A DNA stretch of 64,000 nucleotides, taken from assembly GCA_000004985.1 (NCBI GenBank), contig GG738849.1. One strand, written 5' to 3'. The notes below the pieces were generated by a model. That model was not told where the DNA came from. It saw nothing but the letters and a program-made list of their open reading frames with translations, and made no database searches. This DNA comes from Naegleria gruberi. Its lineage: Eukaryota. The translations under genes and the position numbers were made by a program. Each line of letters opens with the position of its first letter. Within the stretch, counting starts at the first letter, position 1. Below are positions 1 through 62,852 of the stretch, piece by piece.

Positions 1-1066
1 ATAATAATAATAATGAAATATTAATTCATCCATTAGAATTAAAACAAGATATAAAAAATTCATTAAGTAATATTAATAATACTTATTTAAATTATTATAA
101 ATCTATTAATAATATAAATGGTAATAATAATAATAATAATATTAAAAATAGAAGATTAAATATTTTATTATCACATTTAAATATTATAAAAAATAATAAA
201 TATATTAAAAATACATTTCATTATATTAATAATAATAATAATAATTTAAAAAATAATTTAAATAAATTAAAAATAATAATATTAATAATATTTATTTTAA
301 TAATAATAAAAATTAAATTTAAAAATAAAAATATTAAAAATAATTTTACATTAATAGAAATATTAATAGCAATTTCCATAATGGTAACATTTAGTGGATT
401 AACAAGTATAGTATATAATGATAAATTAATAGAAAGTAAAATATCATTTACAAAAATAGAATTAAATTTAATAATACAACATGTCTATTTATATTATATT
501 CAATATAATAAATATCCAATTAAATTAAATGATATTGAAAATATTAAACAAATTACAAATTTAAATGATAAATGGAATCAACCATATATGTACATTCCAT
601 TTATAGATTGGTTAAAAATTATTGAAATTTTACAATCAAAACAAATTAATGAAAAGGAATTAAATTATAATTTAGAATGTTTACAATCTTTAATTAATTG
701 TTTAATTAATTCACAACAATCAATTGATCCTAAAATATTACTTGTTCAAAGTTCAATTCAACCAATTTTATTTTCATTTGGTTATAGAAAACCTATTTTT
801 GTATTTCAAAATGATGATTCAAATGATTCAAATGATTTTAATGATTCAAATAATAATTCATATATACAAAGTAATGAATTTAAAGAAAGATTACAATTGG
901 TTTCACAATGGATTAAAATTGCACGTGAAAAATCTGTAAGTTTTTTTATTATTTAATATTTACAATTTATATATAATTTAAATAGGTTGGGTTAATTAGA
1001 GTACAAAATACATTACAACAATTACAAAATCAATTCAATACTACTAGTAGTACTACTAATAAATAA
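1..1066 (+). CDS. Asn-rich low-complexity protein, unknown function. 5' end lies outside the window. Two exons: 1..935 and 986..1066, intron 936..985.
   Basis: The reading frame is open from position 3 in the same frame as ORF 381..956. GTAAGT donor at 936 and AG acceptor at 984-985 restore the frame, giving ...IAREKS|VGLIRVQNTLQQ...TTNK and a TAA stop at 1064-1066. The 50-nt intron is AT-rich. Confidence 0.5.
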
Positions 1067-1069
1067 TAA

Positions 1070-3801
1070 TTAAATTTGTTCAAATTCAACAATCTTTCCA
1101 CTTGCCAACATTCTTTGAACTGTGCTTGTTGATGTTGAAGATGATGCAGATGGTGGTGTATTCTTTTTCTTCTTACTCTTTTTAGAAGGTGGTGGTGTTG
1201 TTGAAGATTTGGTTTTCTTTTTCTTTTTTGGTTTTTCTTCTTCTTCATCATCGCTCATTTCATCAATATCACTACTACTCATTTCTATTTCTTCATCTTC
1301 TTCATCAATATCACTACTACTGCTACTCATATAATCTTTATTCTCTTCTTCTTCATTCTCTTCTTTATCATCATTTTCATTTCCATTATCATTATTATCA
1401 TTTTCATTAATATTACTATTAATAGAAATGATATCATGTAAATGAATTTGTTCTTTTCTATTTGCATATTTATTTTTAACATATTCTCTTGCTAATAAAC
1501 CTTTTACTAATTTTTTCCAATTATTTAAAAAACGTTCATTCTTTTTTTTAATTAATTTTTCTAATTTAACTTGTTGATATTTTAAATATTCCATTCTAAG
1601 TAATTGTTCATTTTTAGAATGTATAATAATACCATCATAAATAGGTATACTACGTTTATGTTTAAATTCAAAACCAATCATTGCTCTAGAATAATCTATT
1701 TTTAATTTTCTAGCAACAATTGTTAAACCTTTTAAAGGTTCATTATTTGTACTAATATGGCAACATCCAATTGGTAAAAATTTATCATTCCATAATTCAT
1801 ATGATCCTTTATCTGATTTTGGTATTTCATCATTTTCATTTATAATTGGTACTTGATAATCTTCTGTTTGCCATTCACCAAATAATTCTGTTAAATCTGA
1901 ATTTTTACTAAATTTAGAAGATTTTACTATTTTGTAAGGTTTTTCATTTAATTTTACTTTTTTAAAATAATCTCTTAACCATCTATCACGTGTATGAAGT
2001 GGTTTTATCCATTCTCTTAAATAAATTGAATGATTTTTAATTTTATTTATAGAATCTCTATCTTTGGGATATATTGTATCATATTTAGTAATAAATTTAT
2101 CAATTATATAAATTGGATGTGTTTGGAATTCTTGTATTGATGTTGGTATTTCTTTTAAAATTAAATTTTTAATTTCTTTAATTATTTTTTCATCAATTTC
2201 TATAAATGTATTATTTATATATATGGAATTATTTAATATTAATTCAGAATTATTTTTTATAATTAATTTATCTTGTTCTTTTTTAATATTATTATTATTA
2301 TTTGTATTATTATTATTTTTATTATTAGTAGTATTTTTATTATTAGTAGTAGTATTTTTTAAATTACTATTTATAGTATCTTTAATAATTACATCTTGTT
2401 CTTCATCATCATCTAATACATGTATAATTAAATCTTCATTTTCTAAATCAATAATTTCATTATTTTTAATTTCATTATTATTTATATTTATATTTTTAAT
2501 ATTATTATTATTTTCCATATTTGTAATAATATTATTTAAATTATTATTTTTTAATAAATAATTAGGATTTTTTAAATTAATTAAATTTTCATTAAATTCA
2601 AAAATTAAATTATTCATTAAAGTTTCAATTCTTAAATAATTTTCCTTTCCAATTAAAGTATTTGGATATTTACAAATTAAATATTTACTTGTTGTATTTC
2701 TAATAATAAAATTAAAATCTTTTAAAATATCAAATGAAAATACTATAATTGGAATTTGATTTGTTTTTTTATCTAATTTTTTAAAATATTTTTCTAAATT
2801 TTCAATTTTAATTTTTTCTACTTTAAAAGATTTATTTTTTAAAATTAATTTTTTAAAAATATTTTCACTTGTTGAATTTGGATTTTCATATTGAATTTCA
2901 ATCCAATTATTAAATTTAAATTCTTTCTTTTCTAATATTTCTATTTTTGTACAATATCTAATATTATAATTATTATAAATTAATGTAATTAAAATTAATA
3001 AATTTAATTCAAATATATTTTCAATATTTTTTTTAGAAATGTTAAAAATTACATTTTCAAAATTTTCTAAAATTTCAAATAAATTTACATTTTTAAATTT
3101 TTTAATTTTAAATTTTTTATATATAGTATCTAATAAATGATCAATAGATCTATTATCAATTAATTTTAATTCTTCTAATATACTTAATATAGTACCTTGT
3201 AATATTTCATTTTTAATAATTTCTAAAAATTTAAATTCATAATTAAAATAAATTAATAATTCTACAAAATTAATTGAACAATTTAATAATTGTTCTTTTT
3301 TAGTTTTTCTAATTATTTTTTTTCTTTTTTTAGTTTCATGTTCGTCATTTTCATTTTCTTCATTATTTATAGTAAATTGAATATATTCTTCACTTTCCAT
3401 ATTTGGTTCATCTATATTTGGTTCATCTTGTGGAATGACTTGTTCTTCCCATTCATCATTCTCTATATTTGATTCTGTTTGTTCTTCAAACATTTCAATT
3501 CTATCTTTTAATTCTTTAATAGTATCCAATTCTCTTTATATAGTAATATTAAATATTAAATATATTTAAATATTAAAATTTACCTTTCAATTTTTTGTTT
3601 CTTTTTTTTAACAACTTGCTCCTTTTCATATTCCTTTTCCTTTTCTTTTCTCTTTTTATTTTTAATTAATAATTGATCAATACTATGTGATGATTTGTTA
3701 TTTAAATTGGTAACAAGGCTTGTTTCTTCTTCATTGTCATCATCATCTTCATCGGAAGAAAAGGCATGTTTTGCTTTATATTTAACTCCGAAGGGTAACA
3801 T
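1070..3801 (-). CDS. XPC: XPC/Rad4 nucleotide-excision-repair damage-recognition protein. Two exons: 3801..3584 and 3533..1070, intron about 3534..3583.
   Basis: The C-terminal region GEWQTEDYQVPIINENDEIPKSDKGSYELW...FLPIGCCHISTN...ARKLKIDYSRAMIGFEFKHKRSIPIYDGIIIHSKNEQLL matches the BHD3 region of Rad4/XPC (WQTE.Y...PIGC..L....ARKL.ID.A.A..GF.F). ORF 3580..3801 starts with ATG at 3799-3801 and ends in a GTAAAT donor. The acceptor is ...tataaAG at 3535-3534 and the phases are consistent. The C-terminus is acidic and Ser/Thr-rich. Confidence 0.8.
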
Positions 3802-4036
3802 TTATGAGGGAGTATTATAGATGAGGATGTGGTGGTGGAGTATTATGGTGACAGGAGTTAATAATCGGTTGAGAGAGTAATGAAGTGTTTTTTGCGTTTT
3901 TTTAATTGAATTTTTTTTTATAGTCGAGTTCGAGTATGGACAAGAACTATTCATTTTCCTATTAGTGCGCACCCGTAAAATAGCCATGTAAAAATAACGA
4001 AAAATACGATTCAGGGATATAACAGAATTGATGTAA

Positions 4037-4108
4037 GGCGGCTTAGCACAGTGGCAGTGCATCAGTCTTGTAAACTGAGGGTCGAGGGTTCAATTCCCTC
4101 AGTCGCCT
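4037..4108 (+). tRNA. tRNA-Thr, anticodon UGU
   Basis: Cloverleaf by eye: acceptor GGCGGCT/AGTCGCC, D-arm GCAC-AGTGGCA-GTGC, anticodon stem TCAGT/ACTGA with loop CTTGTAA (anticodon TGT), 5-nt variable loop, T-arm GAGGG-TTCAATT-CCCTC. Confidence 0.85.
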
Positions 4109-14733: not shown

Positions 14734-14830
14734 TGATCAGAGTGGGATTTGAACCCACGCCCTTGCGGAACACGGTATTAATATTAGTTTTACCTTAACG
14801 TGTCGTCTTAGACCACTCGACCATCTGACC
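14734..14830 (-). tRNA. tRNA-Leu, anticodon AAG, with an intron of about 17 nt 3' of the anticodon
   Basis: Reverse complement reads GGTCAGATGGTCGAGTGGTCTAAGACGACACGTTAAGG[TAAAACTAATATTAATAC]CGTGTTCCGCAAGGGCGTGGGTTCAAATCCCACTCTGATCA. It has a class-II long variable arm, T-arm GTGGG-TTCAAAT-CCCAC and a 7-bp acceptor stem with one G-U pair. The AT-rich insert sits at the canonical 37/38 position. Confidence 0.75.
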
Positions 14831-57544: not shown

Positions 57545-60500
57545 ATGAGTATTACAGTTTCTGATCAAAATGATTTTAACAATCGTCAGTCAAAGGGAAA
57601 TATTAGTTGTAATTACACATCAACCAATCAATTCGCTGCTAGTTCAGGCGCTTCTGATTTTGTAAATATTGATATCCATCAGGAGGACAGAGAAATAAGT
57701 CAATTGAAAGATGCCCATTTACTTTCGATTGATCAAGTTGCCAGTCAATTGAAAACTAACATTGAACGTGGATTGACTGAAGATGAGGCTAAACAAAGAC
57801 TAGACAAACTTGGTTTGAATGAATTGAAAAAAACAGGAGGTGTAAAGATTTGGAAAATTCTATTGAGACATACTTTTGGTTTTATGAATATTGTTCTGCT
57901 TGCTGCGTTAGTTATTGCATTTGCAGTTCAAGAGTGGATTGATGGAGCTGTTATTGGTTTTATTATTCTTGTAAATGTTGTAATTGGTTTTGTTCAAGAG
58001 TTTAGATCTGAGAATTCCATGCAAAAATTGAAATCACTTCAGGAAACAACTTCCACAGTCATTAGAGATGGAAGAGTTGTAGAAATCAAATCAAAATTTC
58101 TAGCTGTTGGAGATTTAATAGAGCTTAATGAGGGAGATCACATTCCTGCTGATTGCAGAGTTGTCTATTCAGCACAATTATCATGTCTAGAATCTATTCT
58201 GACAGGAGAGTCAGAACCTATTAAGAAAAATCCACAAACCATTGTTCCTAAACCACTTCCTGTCGGATCCCAATCATTTGATGTTAGACCTTCAACATTA
58301 ACAAATCAATCGAATACTACCACCAGTAGATTCTCTTTTGCACGAAGAAAGAAGGATTACAATGTATTGGGTGATAGATTTAATATGGTTTTTGGAGGCA
58401 CAGTGATTACAAAAGGTAAAGGAAAAGCAATTGTTACTTGCACTGGAATGAATACAGAATTGGGTGCTATTGCTCAATCTCTTAATAAGTCCAATGACAG
58501 CAAGTTCAAGAATGCTATTGTGAAATTTTTTGCTCCTAGTGGATCAAGATTACAAAAGAGAATGGGTTTACTAGGTATCGTGTTGGTATTTGCTGGATTA
58601 ATTTGTACTGGACTGGTTTTATTGGGTGTTTATATTCATGGAACAATTCCAATCATTCCAGATGGATTGAAGATTGGTGTTTCAACAGCTGTTGCAGTAA
58701 TTCCTGAAGGATTGGCTCCTGTTCTTACATTGACAATGACAATGGGAGTTTTAAAGATGGCCAAGAACAATGCTATCGTTAGAAGACTCGATGCTATTGA
58801 GTCACTGGGTAATATTACAGATATTTGTACTGACAAAACAGGAACACTCACTGAGGGAAAGATGAGTGTTCGAGAAGTGTATTTGAGCGATGAATCAGAG
58901 TTGAGTGTTGTGAAAACTGTCTCCCCACCATCTGCCAATCATGAACCTCAAAGATCAGTTACTGAATTGATCAATGATAGAGGAGTAGTGGTAAATATCG
59001 ACTCAAATCAATTACTAACCATTTTCCTCACCATTTCCTCCTTGTGTAATGGTGCAAATATAGTCAAGACAAATGAGAAGGAGAATCAAGAGAAACCCAA
59101 TCCAAATCAAAATAAGAAAGCTACAGAAGAAGAATTTGTTGGTGATCCAACAGAAATAGCTCTCCTATCTCTTTCGACATGTTATGGACTCTCTAAGGAA
59201 AAGCTAATTCAAGACAGCTCATTCACATTTCATGAAGAATTCCCATTCGACAGCACCCTGAAAAGAATGACAGTTCTTTACAAGAAGAATGGTCATGAAT
59301 TTATATTAACTAAGGGTGCTCTAGAGCAAACATTACCACTCTGCAGTTACATGTGCTCAAATAGTGATAACATTTCCATATTATCGGAAATATCTGAACA
59401 GGATGCAGAAAAGATTAAATACCAAGCAGAGGGAATGGCTATGAAGGGGTTGAGAGTTCTTTCTCTTGCTTTTCGTCAAAATGCAAGTTTCGAAACAATT
59501 ACTCAAAGAGAAGATGCAGAACGCCAATTGACCTTTGTAGGTTTGGTTGGAATTCAAGATCCACCTCGAGGTGGTGTACATGAGGCAATCAAACTTTGTC
59601 AACATGCTAATTTGACTGTGAGAGTAATAACTGGTGATCACAAAATAACAGCCAAAGCAATAGCACACGAATGTGGAGTCATTGAAGCCGATGACGAAGA
59701 TCTTGTCATGAACGCAAGTACATTTGATAGTATGTCAGATCACGAACTGAGATTATTACCAGATTTACCCAGAGTAATTTCGAGATGTACACCAGGCACT
59801 AAGGAAAGAATGATTGAAGCTCTCCACGCCAGGAAGAAATATGTAGCCATGACAGGTGATGGTGTGAATGATTGTTCCTCTATTAAGGCAGCTGATGTTG
59901 GAATTGCAATGGGAATTACAGGTAGTGATGTGACCAAGGAAGTGGCTGATATCGTTCTAACTGACGATGACTTTTCAACTATAGTTATTGCAATTAAAGA
60001 AGGAAGACACATGTTTGAATCTATCAGAAAGTTTACAATCCACTTGTTATCTGGTAACGTATCACAAACTATATTATTGGTAGTTACTGCCTTGTCTGGA
60101 TTGCAGGTTCCTCTCAATTCCATTCAAATTCTATGGCTTAACTTGGTTACTGGAACAGGACCATCATTTGGATTGGGAAAAGAAAAGGTAAGAAATGATA
60201 TAATGGCTCCTGGATTCAATAGTGGTATGTTCACATTCGAAACCATATCTGATATTCTAGCCTATGGGATAGTTATGGGAATGCTTGGAATGGCTAACTT
60301 TTTATTGGCAACAATGGTTTGGGGAAGACCTTTGATTGAGGCTCAATCACTTACCTTCGTTACAGCCACTTGCCTGTTGCTACTCCATGCATACACATGT
60401 AGACATTTGAGGAAGCCATTCTTTGAGGATGGTTTCTATGAGTGTTGGGTGTTACATTTATTTGTCTTTTTAGGATTGGTTTCAACCATTGCAACATTAT

Positions 60501-60682
60501 ATATTCCTTGGGTAAATTCTAATATTTTTCACCAAGTTCCACTTAACAACCCAATAGATTGGGTATTTGTATTATTTGCAGGATTATTACTCGTGATTTT
60601 TTCAGAAGTTTACAAAGGAATTAAGAGATGCATTATTTCTCTCAAACTAAAAATTAGAAAACGAAGATTACATGGAGTTTAG
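57545..60682 (+). CDS. P-type cation-transporting ATPase, type II (Na+/K+- or ENA-like)
   Basis: TGES (LTGESEP), phosphorylation site ICTDKTGTLTEG, DPPR, TGDHKITAKAIA (the IIC-type TGDHPITAKAIA pattern) and hinge MTGDGVNDCSSIKAADVGIAMG. About 10 TM helices. 1045-aa single exon. Confidence 0.85.
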   Translation: MSITVSDQNDFNNRQSKGNISCNYTSTNQFAASSGASDFVNIDIHQEDREISQLKDAHLLSIDQVASQLKTNIERGLTEDEAKQRLDKLGLNELKKTGGVKIWKILLRHTFGFMNIVLLAALVIAFAVQEWIDGAVIGFIILVNVVIGFVQEFRSENSMQKLKSLQETTSTVIRDGRVVEIKSKFLAVGDLIELNEGDHIPADCRVVYSAQLSCLESILTGESEPIKKNPQTIVPKPLPVGSQSFDVRPSTLTNQSNTTTSRFSFARRKKDYNVLGDRFNMVFGGTVITKGKGKAIVTCTGMNTELGAIAQSLNKSNDSKFKNAIVKFFAPSGSRLQKRMGLLGIVLVFAGLICTGLVLLGVYIHGTIPIIPDGLKIGVSTAVAVIPEGLAPVLTLTMTMGVLKMAKNNAIVRRLDAIESLGNITDICTDKTGTLTEGKMSVREVYLSDESELSVVKTVSPPSANHEPQRSVTELINDRGVVVNIDSNQLLTIFLTISSLCNGANIVKTNEKENQEKPNPNQNKKATEEEFVGDPTEIALLSLSTCYGLSKEKLIQDSSFTFHEEFPFDSTLKRMTVLYKKNGHEFILTKGALEQTLPLCSYMCSNSDNISILSEISEQDAEKIKYQAEGMAMKGLRVLSLAFRQNASFETITQREDAERQLTFVGLVGIQDPPRGGVHEAIKLCQHANLTVRVITGDHKITAKAIAHECGVIEADDEDLVMNASTFDSMSDHELRLLPDLPRVISRCTPGTKERMIEALHARKKYVAMTGDGVNDCSSIKAADVGIAMGITGSDVTKEVADIVLTDDDFSTIVIAIKEGRHMFESIRKFTIHLLSGNVSQTILLVVTALSGLQVPLNSIQILWLNLVTGTGPSFGLGKEKVRNDIMAPGFNSGMFTFETISDILAYGIVMGMLGMANFLLATMVWGRPLIEAQSLTFVTATCLLLLHAYTCRHLRKPFFEDGFYECWVLHLFVFLGLVSTIATLYIPWVNSNIFHQVPLNNPIDWVFVLFAGLLLVIFSEVYKGIKRCIISLKLKIRKRRLHGV

Positions 60683-60817
60683 TCTGATTGGAATGGAAAA
60701 TGAGGCAATGAATAAACAAAACACTAAAGTATAATTTTGAGCCTTCATTTATTTACCGAATTCTTCCAAGTGTTCAATTAAATATTTGATTAATATTTCA
60801 CATTTTGGGATTATTGT

Positions 60818-60937
60818 CGGCTACGGCCATATCACGATGAATGCACCTCATCCCGTCCGATTTGAGAAGTTAAGCATCGTCGAGCCACATCAGTACTGAG
60901 GTTGGAGACAACTTGGGAACCTGTGGTGCTGTAGTCT
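60818..60937 (+). rRNA. 5S ribosomal RNA gene, solitary chromosomal copy
   Basis: GGCTACGGCCATATCACGATGAATGCACCTCATCCCGTCCGATTTGAGAAGTTAAGCATCGTCGAGCCACATCAGTACTGAGGTTGGAGACAACTTGGGAACCTGTGGTGCTGTAGTC matches universal 5S blocks (CGGCCATA, CCCGTCCGAT, GAAGTTAAGC, AGTACT, GGGAA, GGTGCTGTAG). It includes GGTTGGAGACAAC, as I remember it from D. discoideum 5S. The terminal helix GGCTAC/GTAGTC is complementary. Confidence 0.8.
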
Positions 60938-60948
60938 TTTTGTTTTCG
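60937..60948 (+). terminator. RNA polymerase III T-run terminator immediately 3' of the 5S gene
   Basis: TTTTTGTTTT directly follows the 5S 3' end, as expected for Pol III termination. Confidence 0.5.
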
Positions 60949-61277
60949 ATTTTAAGATTTCACTTTTTGAAAATCGAACTACAAATCGTAAATAGCAAAT
61001 AACCAACACATGAAACGATCGAAACGATGAGCAAAATTGCCAAAACACCATACACACCAAATGCTTTTTTCATTTTTTTAAAAATTAAAAAATGATTTCA
61101 AGTCAACCAACAACAGAAACACACCAAAAGAATAAGAAGAAGAATTCTAACAATAATTCAGAGCCAGCATCATTGGAATTACAACCACGATCCAACAATA
61201 AATCCAATTCTAATATAACAATAATAATAATAACAATCAAAAAGTAAACAAAAACAAACCATCATCAACACCTTCCG

Positions 61278-62852
61278 ATGCTGCCTCTACTCCACAACCA
61301 TCAAAAGATCATGAAAAAGCAAATAATAAAAAAGCCTAAGGGCAATGGTGGTAATACTAGCAATAATAATAATCAGAAACAGGAAAAAACAAAACAAGAA
61401 AAAAGACCAAAATCTGCACAAATTGATCATCAAAAAACAAGTCAAAACAAACAAGAAAGCAAATCATCACAATCTGAAAGACCAAAATCTGCACAAAGAG
61501 ATCAAAAATCAATTTCAGAGAACAAACAAGAAACTTTGTCTGAAAAAGATCAAAAATTAAAGAAGGATTCGGTAAAGAAAGATGGGAGACAAGATAGTGT
61601 TGCATATTCTCTTCCCAAGATAGATCGATCATTATTTTCTTATGAATATATTCCAGAATATTCTTTTGAAAATGTTCAAGAATTGATAAAGAATGGAAAT
61701 TTGGAGAAGGCTGCACAAGTTATGAATTTGGTATTGAATCCGTCGATTGAGTGTTTGTGTTATGCTTTGAATGTTAATCAACGGATTAACAATTCGAAGA
61801 AAGTGGCAGAGATTGGAGCAAGAATAGACAAATTGGTTGGTTTGAAAGCTAAAGCTAAGAAAATCAAATTGAATTATAATTGGAAACAAATTTGGCCCTA
61901 TTTGGATTATTTAATTGATGAAACTTGCAAGGATAGTTCAATAATTGAAAGAGAAATTGAGTTTAACCTTAAAAGTTCGAAATGTGAATCTTACACAGAG
62001 GAGGACGACAGTGCTATTACCAAATACTGTGAATGGAATGAAGAGTATTTCAAGCAGTTACGTTATCCCTTTGCGTTTGGTACTGGACGAAACAATTTCT
62101 TGACCTCGTACATTAAATTATCAAATTACACCATGAAAGAAATGGAAGCAAGAAAATTAGATTTTCATTTCTTTAAAGGAGAAATGAGTGAAGAAAATAT
62201 TTGCCCATCAACATTTTATAATTTGATTGCTAGAGTTGGATTGACAAGGGATCATTTATTAAATGGTAAACATGGTTTCAAGGATATGATTCGTGTTTTT
62301 CCATATAAAGTGGAAAGCTCACTAGCCAACTCGGAAAGTTTTTCTCAAGATGTTGAGAAATATATCAATAACAAGTTGGAAAATACCCATCAACCCTACG
62401 TTGTGTTTGTCTTTTCATTTGACAGTGATTTTACAGTCAAGAGAGGTATTGTAAATTACTACAATGCATTTAACATCTACCCAAGTGCCACAATTATTGA
62501 GACAACAGAAAATAGAGTTTACTATTGCTTTGAAAACAATAGAAAGAAAACTATTGATCTCCACAAAATGTCAGTCGAGGAGGCAAAAACAAGAGTACTC
62601 GAACTCATTCAAGAACGATATGAATACAGAGACAGAGAGTTCAGTATAATAACTGGTAAAGGAAATCATGTGAATGAGAATGGAACCTCTGGTGTGCTTC
62701 GTGAATTGATTGGAAAGTTATTGAAAGAGCATCCTCTTGTGGAATCAGCAAAACTTTTAGAGGGAAAGTATGTGGTTAAAATCAAAGAAAGACCATTTGA
62801 TTTCTTGGAACAAGATTGGATTGAATTTAAAAAGACTCAGTACAACAAATGA
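61278..62852 (+). CDS. Smr (small MutS-related) domain protein with an N-terminal basic tandem-repeat region
   Basis: C-terminal Smr domain LHKMSVEEAKTRVLELIQ...FSIITGKGNHVNENGTSGVLRELIGKLLKEHPLVESAKLLEGKYVVKIKE. The N-terminus has imperfect repeats (EKRPKSAQIDHQKTSQNKQESKSSQSERPKSAQRDQKSISENKQE). The start codon is uncertain (61278 or a downstream Met). Confidence 0.65.
   Translation: MLPLLHNHQKIMKKQIIKKPKGNGGNTSNNNNQKQEKTKQEKRPKSAQIDHQKTSQNKQESKSSQSERPKSAQRDQKSISENKQETLSEKDQKLKKDSVKKDGRQDSVAYSLPKIDRSLFSYEYIPEYSFENVQELIKNGNLEKAAQVMNLVLNPSIECLCYALNVNQRINNSKKVAEIGARIDKLVGLKAKAKKIKLNYNWKQIWPYLDYLIDETCKDSSIIEREIEFNLKSSKCESYTEEDDSAITKYCEWNEEYFKQLRYPFAFGTGRNNFLTSYIKLSNYTMKEMEARKLDFHFFKGEMSEENICPSTFYNLIARVGLTRDHLLNGKHGFKDMIRVFPYKVESSLANSESFSQDVEKYINNKLENTHQPYVVFVFSFDSDFTVKRGIVNYYNAFNIYPSATIIETTENRVYYCFENNRKKTIDLHKMSVEEAKTRVLELIQERYEYRDREFSIITGKGNHVNENGTSGVLRELIGKLLKEHPLVESAKLLEGKYVVKIKERPFDFLEQDWIEFKKTQYNK
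61380..61560. repeat. Imperfect tandem repeat of about 60 nt inside the Smr-protein gene
   Basis: aaaagaccaaaatctgcacaaattgatcatcaaaaaacaagtcaaaacaaacaagaaagcaaatcatcacaatctgaaagaccaaaatctgcacaaagagatcaaaaatc. Confidence 0.5.

What the first reader, a model, noticed from the sequence alone, without database searches (positions are those of the whole stretch)
60780..60960. Solitary 5S rRNA gene embedded between protein-coding genes
A complete 5S gene of about 120 nt lies 135 bp downstream of the P-type ATPase stop. It has all the conserved 5S blocks, a complementary terminal helix and an immediate T-run terminator, and it is not part of an rDNA repeat. In D. discoideum, 5S is encoded on the extrachromosomal rDNA palindrome. 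A dispersed chromosomal copy is therefore either a species-specific organisation or a 5S orphon/retrocopy.
Basis: partly seen in the sequence, partly recalled or inferred. Interest (0 to 1): 0.55.

Follow-up and report, generated by a model that had tools for sequence, protein, structure and literature searches.

The report
Dispersed Naegleria gruberi 5S rRNA gene
This is an intact 5S ribosomal RNA gene standing alone between two protein genes, which is normal for the amoeba Naegleria gruberi (not a slime mould), and a 2012 paper already lists this exact copy.

Summary
Rfam RF00001 matches window 60819-60937 (+) over the full model at 105.4 bits (threshold 38). All helices are intact. A T5-G-T4 run follows the gene, and no other rRNA lies in the 64 kb.

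The interpretive frame is wrong. The window is Naegleria gruberi, not a dictyostelid: the upstream ATPase is residue-for-residue identical to an N. gruberi protein. Naegleria carries 18S/5.8S/28S on a circular extrachromosomal plasmid. Its 5S genes are chromosomal.

Table S1 of PMC3369914 lists 279 putative 5S genes in the N. gruberi assembly. One is R33602 at scaffold_5:60822-60938, which is this copy, so the window is the start of scaffold_5. I parsed that table. The copies lie on 117 scaffolds, the median same-scaffold spacing is 34 kb, and 200 of 279 have no neighbour within 10 kb.

So this is an ordinary member of a known dispersed 5S family, most likely transcribed by RNA polymerase III from an internal box A/box C promoter plus an upstream A/T-rich element. 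I found no sign of pseudogene decay or a poly(A) tail.

One loose end remains. An imperfect 18-nt direct repeat brackets the gene, with an empirical chance of about 1-6%. It is a weak hint of insertion.

Novelty: already known. Interest: low.

The parts
60819..60937 (+). 5S rRNA gene, 119 nt. It is copy R33602 of the N. gruberi 5S family.
   Evidence: RF00001 scores 105.4 bits over the full model. It folds as a three-way junction. Its coordinates match scaffold_5:60822-60938 in Table S1 of PMC3369914. All 39 consensus pairs form in this copy, and 15 of 39 covary across 9 related sequences.
60868..60882 (+). Box A of the internal control region (RNA positions 50-64): AGTTAAGCATCGTCG
   Evidence: Exact match to the degenerate box A pattern quoted in PMC3369914, at the canonical position. 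Its function is inferred, not tested.
60898..60915 (+). Box C-like segment (RNA positions 80-97): GAGGTTGGAGACAACTTG
   Evidence: Best match in the gene to the box C pattern, at the canonical position, with 2 mismatches. Inconclusive as a promoter element.
60937..60946 (+). T5-G-T4 run, the presumed RNA polymerase III terminator
   Evidence: Read directly from the sequence. Every full-length relative with 3' flank on its contig also has a T-run of at least 3, either immediately after the gene or, in L013, 8 nt downstream.
60789..60798 (+). A/T-only run ATTAATATTT at -30 to -21, a candidate TATA-like upstream element
   Evidence: Eight of 11 compared copies have an A/T-only run of at least 6 nt starting between -30 and -21. 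The background is itself A/T-rich, so this is weak support. PMC3369914 reports a TATA box upstream of N. gruberi 5S genes.
60790..60807 (+). Upstream copy of an imperfect 18-nt direct repeat that brackets the gene: TTAATATTTCACATTTTG
   Evidence: Repeat family D5: 16 of 18 identical to 60952-60969, spacing 162 nt. Shuffles reach this score in 4 of 2000 trials. The empirical null from the same window is 1.0-5.9%. Its meaning is unresolved.
60952..60969 (+). Downstream copy of the bracketing direct repeat: TTAAGATTTCACTTTTTG
57545..60682 (+). Upstream neighbour: a P-type cation ATPase ORF. It is context, not part of the 5S unit.
   Evidence: Pfam hits E1-E2_ATPase, Cation_ATPase_N and _C, and Hydrolase. 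It matches N. gruberi protein P0001 at 940 of 940 aligned residues.
61278..62852 (+). Downstream neighbour: an ORF with a C-terminal Smr domain. It is context only, and its true start may lie further upstream.
   Evidence: ORF list. Pfam Smr, E = 2.9e-13.

Best explanation
This is one ordinary member of the dispersed chromosomal 5S rRNA gene family of Naegleria gruberi. It sits in the short spacer between a P-type ATPase gene and an Smr-domain gene near the start of scaffold_5. Naegleria keeps 18S, 5.8S and 28S on a multicopy circular extrachromosomal element, so 5S must be supplied from the chromosomes. It is supplied by a few hundred scattered single genes rather than by a tandem array or an rDNA-linked copy.

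The likely mechanism is inferred from general Pol III biology and from the motifs present. TFIIIC/TFIIIB-type factors assemble on the internal control region: box A at +50 and a box C-like element at +80. An upstream A/T-rich element near -30 to -21 probably assists. RNA polymerase III starts at or within 3 nt of 60819 and terminates in the T5 run that begins at the last base of the gene. The 119-nt RNA folds into the canonical five-helix three-way junction, binds uL18 (L5), and enters the large ribosomal subunit.

Shown here: the gene's identity, its structural intactness, its solitary position, the organism, and the dispersed family layout. Inferred: that this copy is transcribed, and which promoter elements act.
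For: The full-length RF00001 hit scores 105.4 bits with no flagged mispairs.

The fold is the canonical one.

In an alignment with 8 environmental relatives, all 39 consensus pairs form in this copy, and 15 pairs show compensatory double changes.

Box A is exact at +50, box C-like sits at +80, and the T-run terminator is present.

An independent heterolobosean contig, L005, carries a 5S gene identical at 118 of 119 positions. Its flanks are completely unrelated on both sides, so conservation stops exactly at the RNA ends.

The organism is identified by the 940 of 940 residue match to an N. gruberi protein.

PMC3369914 Table S1 lists this copy as R33602, scaffold_5:60822-60938, similarity 0.75. 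By my hand count, 161 of 279 rows share that value.

Parsing the table gives 117 scaffolds, a median same-scaffold gap of 34 kb, a minimum gap of 462 bp, and 200 of 279 copies with no other copy within 10 kb. This is the only copy listed on scaffold_5.

The Naegleria rDNA element carries only 5.8S, 18S and 28S (PMC5805870).

Scattered 5S genes are documented in Neurospora, S. pombe and Acanthamoeba (PMC1635290).
Against: No expression data could be consulted, so activity of this particular copy is inferred.

I could not retrieve the other 278 N. gruberi copies. Whether this copy is the family consensus therefore rests only on its sharing the modal similarity value in Table S1.

Position 24 is T here, but A in L005, in all the other relatives and in the Rfam consensus.

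Box C has 2 mismatches to the metazoan-derived pattern.

PMC3369914 found no TFIIIA homologue in N. gruberi, so how the internal promoter is read is uncertain.

The same paper's Table 1 labels the N. gruberi genes 'tandem'. That conflicts with its own coordinates. It could reflect collapsed arrays on the many small scaffolds that also carry 5S.
Confidence: 0.9

Rival explanations
1. The copy arrived as a small inserted DNA or RNA-derived segment of about 162 bp, comprising the 5S gene plus about 11 nt upstream and 14 nt downstream. The insertion left an 18-22 nt target-site duplication. This would be an 'orphon' generated by a transposition-like or retroposition-like event. It might still be functional.
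For: An imperfect direct repeat, 16 of 18 identical (20 of 22 with one 2-nt indel), brackets the gene at -29 to -12 and at +15 to +32. Mononucleotide shuffles of the flanks reach this score in 4 of 2000 trials. One unrelated environmental copy, L013, also has a flanking repeat, reached in 6 of 500 shuffles. In three relatives, the loci orthologous to L005's neighbouring gene lack a 5S gene, so 5S positions do change over time.
Against: An empirical null from the same window (random 119-nt 'genes') reaches the score in 1.2% of cases overall and in 5.9% of cases when the flanks are below 25% GC. So the repeat is only marginal. It does not abut the RNA ends, as an RNA-mediated copy would require. 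There is no A-rich tail. The closest relative, L005, and six other copies show no flanking repeat. The 11 nt upstream and 14 nt downstream, which would belong to the inserted unit, show no similarity to the corresponding L005 flanks.
Confidence: 0.08
2. It is a decaying 5S pseudogene: a dead copy that is not transcribed or not used.
For: Large dispersed 5S families usually contain pseudogenes. Table S1 of PMC3369914 includes truncated and low-similarity entries. This copy has a T at position 24 where its relatives have A.
Against: The score of 105.4 bits is as high as or higher than that of all but one relative. Every helix pair forms. Box A, the terminator and the full length are all intact. 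The copy has the modal similarity value of the family.
Confidence: 0.05
3. It is an assembly artefact: a 5S or rDNA fragment wrongly joined into a chromosomal scaffold.
For: None was found.
Against: There are no N runs or breaks in the sequence read across 60300-61500, and base composition is even across 56-64 kb. The gene sits in a normal-sized spacer between two intact ORFs. No other rRNA is nearby. The same arrangement of a lone 5S gene beside a protein gene is seen in an independent environmental contig, L005. The family is dispersed genome-wide.
Confidence: 0.01

Closest known systems
Naegleria gruberi nuclear 5S rRNA gene family (279 putative copies; PMC3369914, Table S1)
   Same: It is this family. 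This copy is entry R33602, scaffold_5:60822-60938. It is not linked to the rDNA unit. The paper reports an internal control region and an upstream TATA-like element for the family.
   Different: Nothing differs in kind. The paper's Table 1 calls the arrangement 'tandem', but its own coordinates show scattered single genes and loose clusters with spacings of 1.5-5 kb.
Scattered 5S genes of Neurospora crassa, Schizosaccharomyces pombe and Acanthamoeba castellanii (reviewed in PMC1635290)
   Same: These are single 5S genes scattered among protein-coding genes, detached from the large rDNA, each with its own Pol III signals. As I recall for Neurospora, conservation is confined to the transcribed region while the flanks are unrelated. 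The window/L005 comparison shows the same pattern.
   Different: The lineage is different (Heterolobosea, Discoba). Here the large rRNA genes are not chromosomal at all but sit on a circular plasmid. No TFIIIA homologue has been reported for N. gruberi.
Dictyostelium discoideum 5S gene on the extrachromosomal rDNA palindrome
   Same: In both organisms the large rRNA genes are extrachromosomal (PMC1635290 for Dictyostelium; PMC5805870 for Naegleria).
   Different: In Dictyostelium the 5S gene rides on the rDNA element. In Naegleria the element carries only 18S, 5.8S and 28S, and the 5S genes are chromosomal and dispersed. The window is not from a dictyostelid.
Mammalian 5S retropseudogenes and orphons (recalled from memory, not checked here)
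   Same: These are solitary 5S-like sequences away from the main 5S loci. The flanking direct repeat here is reminiscent of them.
   Different: As I recall, those copies carry A-rich tails, have direct repeats that abut the RNA ends, and are often degenerate. None of this is seen here.

Membership tests
5S rRNA (Rfam RF00001) | Covariance-model score above the curated gathering threshold over the full model | tested here: met
   105.4 bits against a threshold of 38; model positions 1-120 of 120; E = 4.4e-22.
5S rRNA (Rfam RF00001) | Three-way junction of five helices with a closed terminal helix I | tested here: met
   The minimum-free-energy and centroid structures show it. All 39 consensus pairs form in this copy, and 15 covary among relatives.
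Eukaryotic Pol III type 1 (5S) gene | Internal control region: box A near +50 and box C near +80 | tested here: inconclusive
   Box A matches exactly at +50. Box C-like sits at +80 with 2 mismatches to the pattern. The intermediate-element pattern is too degenerate to be informative.
Eukaryotic Pol III type 1 (5S) gene | Run of at least 4 T immediately after the RNA end | tested here: met
   T5 at 60937-60941, then G, then T4.
Eukaryotic Pol III type 1 (5S) gene | Transcribed into a stable RNA of about 120 nt that is incorporated into ribosomes | not testable with these tools
   No RNA-seq or ChIP data are available.
Dispersed (scattered) 5S gene organisation | No other 5S copy adjacent, and family members spread over many loci with unrelated flanks | tested here: met
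   It is the only 5S in 64 kb and the only copy listed on scaffold_5. The 279 copies lie on 117 scaffolds with a median gap of 34 kb. The flanks are unrelated to those of the copy in L005, which is identical at 118 of 119 positions.
rDNA-linked 5S gene (as in Dictyostelium or S. cerevisiae) | 18S, 5.8S or 28S genes in the same repeat unit | tested here: not met
   No SSU, LSU or 5.8S hit anywhere in the window. The Naegleria rDNA element encodes only 5.8S, 18S and 28S.
Tandem 5S array | Head-to-tail repeats of gene plus spacer | tested here: not met
   There is a single copy, and no tandem repeat is reported near 60.8 kb.
5S retrocopy or retropseudogene | A-rich 3' tail and target-site duplications abutting the RNA ends | tested here: not met
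   The 3' flank is T-rich. The only flanking repeat lies 11 nt upstream and 14 nt downstream of the gene ends and is statistically marginal.
5S retrocopy or retropseudogene | Sequence decay relative to the functional copies | tested here: inconclusive
   No decay is visible in the structure or the motifs. The other N. gruberi copies could not be retrieved for a direct comparison.

The most novel reading that the evidence does not exclude
The 18-22 nt imperfect direct repeat bracketing the gene is a real target-site duplication. That would mean Naegleria 5S genes spread through the chromosomes by inserting short DNA segments of about 160 bp, each landing in A/T-rich spacers that then supply the TATA-like upstream element. 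This would be a mechanistic explanation for how a dispersed 5S family is born and turned over.
Probability: 0.08. Interest if true: 0.45.

Novelty: already known. Interest (0 to 1): 0.12.

Why it matters
It matters little as a discovery. The gene is real, but it is a catalogued member of a known dispersed family in a sequenced model amoeba.

It is useful in two smaller ways. First, it corrects the organism and removes the apparent anomaly. Second, the published table that lists this copy shows scattered genes, not the 'tandem' arrangement stated in that paper's summary table.

There is also a wording issue in the literature. The statement that Naegleria has no rRNA genes in nuclear DNA applies only to 18S, 5.8S and 28S.

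The general question of how hundreds of scattered copies stay nearly identical could be addressed with this family. This single locus does not open that question.

Tried and rejected
**Dictyostelid origin.** Rejected by the protein match to N. gruberi.

**Retrieving the N. gruberi scaffold or other N. gruberi 5S copies.** Three exact-protein look-ups failed, so within-genome alignment of the copies was not possible.

**Scans of public collections with 5S-derived patterns.**
- A 33-mer specific to the N. gruberi type found nothing in the prokaryote genome collection or in the viral contigs.
- A different 30-mer, from the conserved helix III/box A part of the gene, found 13 contigs in the metagenome collection. 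Only one, L005, is of the N. gruberi type. Eleven come from another organism (26-30 mismatches wherever a full-length copy could be compared), and one, L013, is from a GC-rich organism.

**Synteny tests.**
- The best ATPase homologues in N. lovaniensis and Willaertia have different neighbours and no 5S gene within 10 kb. They are probably paralogues.
- Orthologues of the hydrolase next to L005's 5S gene lack a 5S gene in three relatives.
- An attempt to show that L005's other flank is syntenic found nothing.

**Upstream A/T-run conservation.** It is present in 8 of 11 copies, but the background is A/T-rich, so I do not claim it as significant.

**Target-site duplication.** Tested with shuffles and with an empirical null; the result is marginal.

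**Bacterial promoter/terminator scanner.** Not used, because it does not apply to a eukaryotic Pol III gene.

Full report
**1. Is the feature there?**

Yes. Rfam release 15 places RF00001 (5S_rRNA) at window 60819-60937 on the + strand. The score is 105.4 bits against a gathering score of 38, with E = 4.4e-22. The hit covers model positions 1-120 of 120, is not truncated, and has no flagged non-canonical pair.

It is the only 5S hit in the window. The only other Rfam hits are two tRNAs, so no 18S, 5.8S or 28S gene is within 64 kb. A low-stringency blastn of the 119-nt gene against the window finds only itself plus chance 10-19 nt matches.

Folded alone, the RNA adopts the canonical three-way junction with a closed terminal helix. 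The energy is -41.5 kcal/mol, and the MFE and centroid structures agree (z = -2.6).

The ATPase ORF upstream ends at 60682, which is 136 nt before the gene. The last base of the gene starts a T5 run, followed by G and then T4.

**2. Which organism?**

The window has about 32% G+C, not the 22% I recall for D. discoideum.

The upstream 1045-aa ORF is a P-type cation ATPase (Pfam). Its best database match is 'predicted protein, partial [Naegleria gruberi]'. The pairwise alignment is identical at 940 of 940 aligned residues. The only difference is a 31-residue stretch that the gene model removes. The next best hits, N. lovaniensis and Willaertia magna, are only 44-46% identical.

The window is therefore N. 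gruberi, a heterolobosean. It is not a dictyostelid.

**3. What is known about 5S in this organism?**

PMC3369914 (PLoS One 2012) searched the N. gruberi assembly and reports 279 putative 5S genes. It reports that they are not located with the rDNA unit, that they have an internal control region and a TATA box, and that no TFIIIA homologue was found.

Its Table S1 includes 'R33602, scaffold_5, 60822-60938, similarity 0.75'. That coincides with the Rfam hit at 60819-60937. Base 60822 is a T, matching the paper's 'proposed first transcribed base (T)'. So the window is the first 64 kb of scaffold_5, and this very copy is already catalogued.

I transcribed the table and analysed the coordinates:
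- 279 rows, of which 264 are at least 110 nt long.
- 117 different scaffolds; 57 scaffolds carry a single copy.
- 162 same-scaffold gaps, with a median of 33.9 kb and a minimum of 462 bp. Nine gaps are under 2 kb and 32 are under 5 kb.
- 200 of 279 copies have no other listed copy within 10 kb.
- Scaffold_5 has only this one copy.

By hand count, 161 of the 279 rows share the similarity value 0.75, including this copy. It therefore belongs to the modal class.

The paper's summary table marks N. gruberi as 'tandem arrangement: yes'. Its own coordinates show a scattered family with some loose clusters. I cannot exclude collapsed arrays on the many small scaffolds that carry 5S genes.

Naegleria's 18S, 5.8S and 28S genes are on a circular extrachromosomal element of about 14 kb, present in thousands of copies. 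The annotated gene content of that element does not include 5S (PMC5805870).

Scattered 5S genes are a recognised, if minority, arrangement. They are known from Neurospora crassa, S. pombe and Acanthamoeba castellanii (PMC1635290).

**4. Is this copy intact, and how does it probably work?**

A metagenome scan with a 30-mer from the gene returned 13 contigs. All 13 carry 5S hits, and 11 of them are full length.

One contig, L005, has a 5S gene identical to the window's at 118 of 119 positions, yet its flanks are completely unrelated on both sides. Its neighbouring 361-aa hydrolase ORF has Willaertia (52%) and N. lovaniensis (58%) as its best named relatives. L005 is therefore a heterolobosean, but not the reference N. 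gruberi. Conservation thus stops exactly at the RNA ends. That pattern is expected if selection or homogenisation acts on the RNA and its internal promoter, rather than on a larger mobile unit.

In a nine-sequence alignment the consensus structure has 39 pairs. All of them form in the window copy, and 15 show compensatory double changes across the relatives.

I also checked the promoter motifs, using the degenerate patterns quoted in PMC3369914:
- Box A matches exactly at RNA position 50 (60868-60882).
- The best box C match is at position 80 (60898-60915), with 2 mismatches. Both positions are the canonical ones.
- An A/T-only run, ATTAATATTT, lies at -30 to -21. Eight of the 11 compared copies have such a run starting between -30 and -21. 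The spacers are A/T-rich overall, so this is weak support.

My reading is a standard type 1 Pol III gene. Factors assemble on the internal box A/box C region, assisted by an upstream TATA-like element. Transcription starts at or within 3 nt of 60819 and terminates in the T5 run. The identity, structure and motifs are shown. Transcription of this copy, and which factors are used, are inferred. No TFIIIA has been reported for this species, which is the main mechanistic gap.

**5. Rival readings**

*Retrocopy or orphon.* There is no A-rich tail, and no decay of the helices or motifs.

The one observation in its favour is an imperfect 18-nt direct repeat that brackets the gene: 60790-60807 TTAATATTTCACATTTTG and 60952-60969 TTAAGATTTCACTTTTTG. 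It is 16 of 18 identical with a spacing of 162 nt.
- Mononucleotide shuffles of the flanks reach this score in 4 of 2000 trials.
- An empirical null, built by sliding a dummy 119-nt 'gene' along the same window, reaches it in 1.2% of positions overall, 1.0% at similar flank G+C, and 5.9% when the flanks are below 25% G+C.
- The repeat does not abut the RNA ends.
- L005 and six other copies show no such repeat. One unrelated copy, L013, does.

I treat it as an unexplained, marginal signal.

*Pseudogene.* Nothing supports this beyond a T at position 24, where the relatives and the Rfam consensus have A.

*Assembly chimera.* Nothing supports this. The sequence is continuous, the spacer is of normal size, and the same layout of a lone 5S gene next to a protein gene appears in L005.

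**6. Positional stability**

The closest ATPase homologues in N. lovaniensis and Willaertia have different neighbours and no 5S gene within 10 kb. They are probably not orthologous loci.

Orthologues of the hydrolase that sits next to L005's 5S gene have no 5S gene within 10 kb in N. lovaniensis, in Willaertia or in a third relative. This suggests that 5S positions turn over between lineages, but the sample is small. About 110 kb was scanned in total, in which N. gruberi's density would predict less than one copy.

**7. Verdict**

The feature is an ordinary, already catalogued member of the dispersed 5S rRNA gene family of Naegleria gruberi. Novelty: already known. Interest: low (0.12).

The most novel reading not excluded is that the bracketing repeat is a target-site duplication that reveals how these genes disperse. 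I give that about 8%.

Noticed in passing
window 60790-60807 and 60952-60969: An imperfect 18-nt direct repeat (16 of 18 identical; 20 of 22 with a 2-nt indel) brackets the 5S gene at -29 and +15. It is marginally unusual, at 1-6% by the empirical null. It could be a target-site duplication or chance in an A/T-rich spacer.
   Followed up: partly
PMC3369914, Table 1 versus Table S1 (N. gruberi assembly coordinates): The paper's summary table scores N. gruberi 5S genes as 'tandem arrangement: yes'. Its own coordinate list shows 117 scaffolds, a median gap of 34 kb, a minimum gap of 462 bp, and 200 of 279 copies with no neighbour within 10 kb. That is a scattered family with a few loose clusters at 1.5-5 kb spacing.
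   Followed up: yes
window 14734-14830 (-): An intron-containing tRNA gene of 97 nt (Rfam, 47.3 bits) that ARAGORN did not report. It has a long variable arm, the anticodon loop reads TT-AAG-G before the insert (so probably tRNA-Leu(AAG)), and a T6 run follows directly.
   Followed up: partly
window 4037-4108 (+): A tRNA-Thr(UGU) gene (Rfam 70.4 bits; ARAGORN agrees). It lies at the boundary between a very A/T-rich 4-kb scaffold end and normal-composition sequence.
   Followed up: no
window 1-4000: The first 4 kb have only 17-19% G+C and contain degenerate A/T-rich tandem repeats with periods of 18-41 nt. This may be a scaffold-end, subtelomeric-type or low-complexity region. A second A/T-rich patch (20% G+C) lies at 18-20 kb.
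   Followed up: no
window 57545-60682 (+), residues 240-270 of the ORF: The N. gruberi database protein lacks 31 residues that are in frame and uninterrupted in the genomic ORF. Either the gene model removes a 93-nt in-frame intron, or it mis-predicts one.
   Followed up: no
L001-L004 and L006-L012 (metagenome contigs VFQM.../VFQO...): Eleven contigs from one or two metagenomes carry a second 5S type. Where a full-length copy could be compared, it differs from the window at 26-30 positions. Each contig holds a single copy, and each copy with flanks on the contig has unrelated flanks, in 33-38% G+C sequence. An unidentified protist therefore also seems to have dispersed 5S genes.
   Followed up: no
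L005 539-657 (-) and 823-1908 (+); L016-L019: An environmental heterolobosean has a 5S gene identical to the window's at 118 of 119 positions, 165 nt upstream of an alpha/beta-hydrolase gene. The orthologous hydrolase loci in N. lovaniensis, Willaertia magna and a third relative have no 5S gene within 10 kb. 5S positions therefore appear not to be conserved between lineages.
   Followed up: partly
Literature (PMC5805870 and related CERE announcements): [quoted passage not shown] That holds for 18S, 5.8S and 28S only, because the 5S genes are chromosomal.
   Followed up: yes
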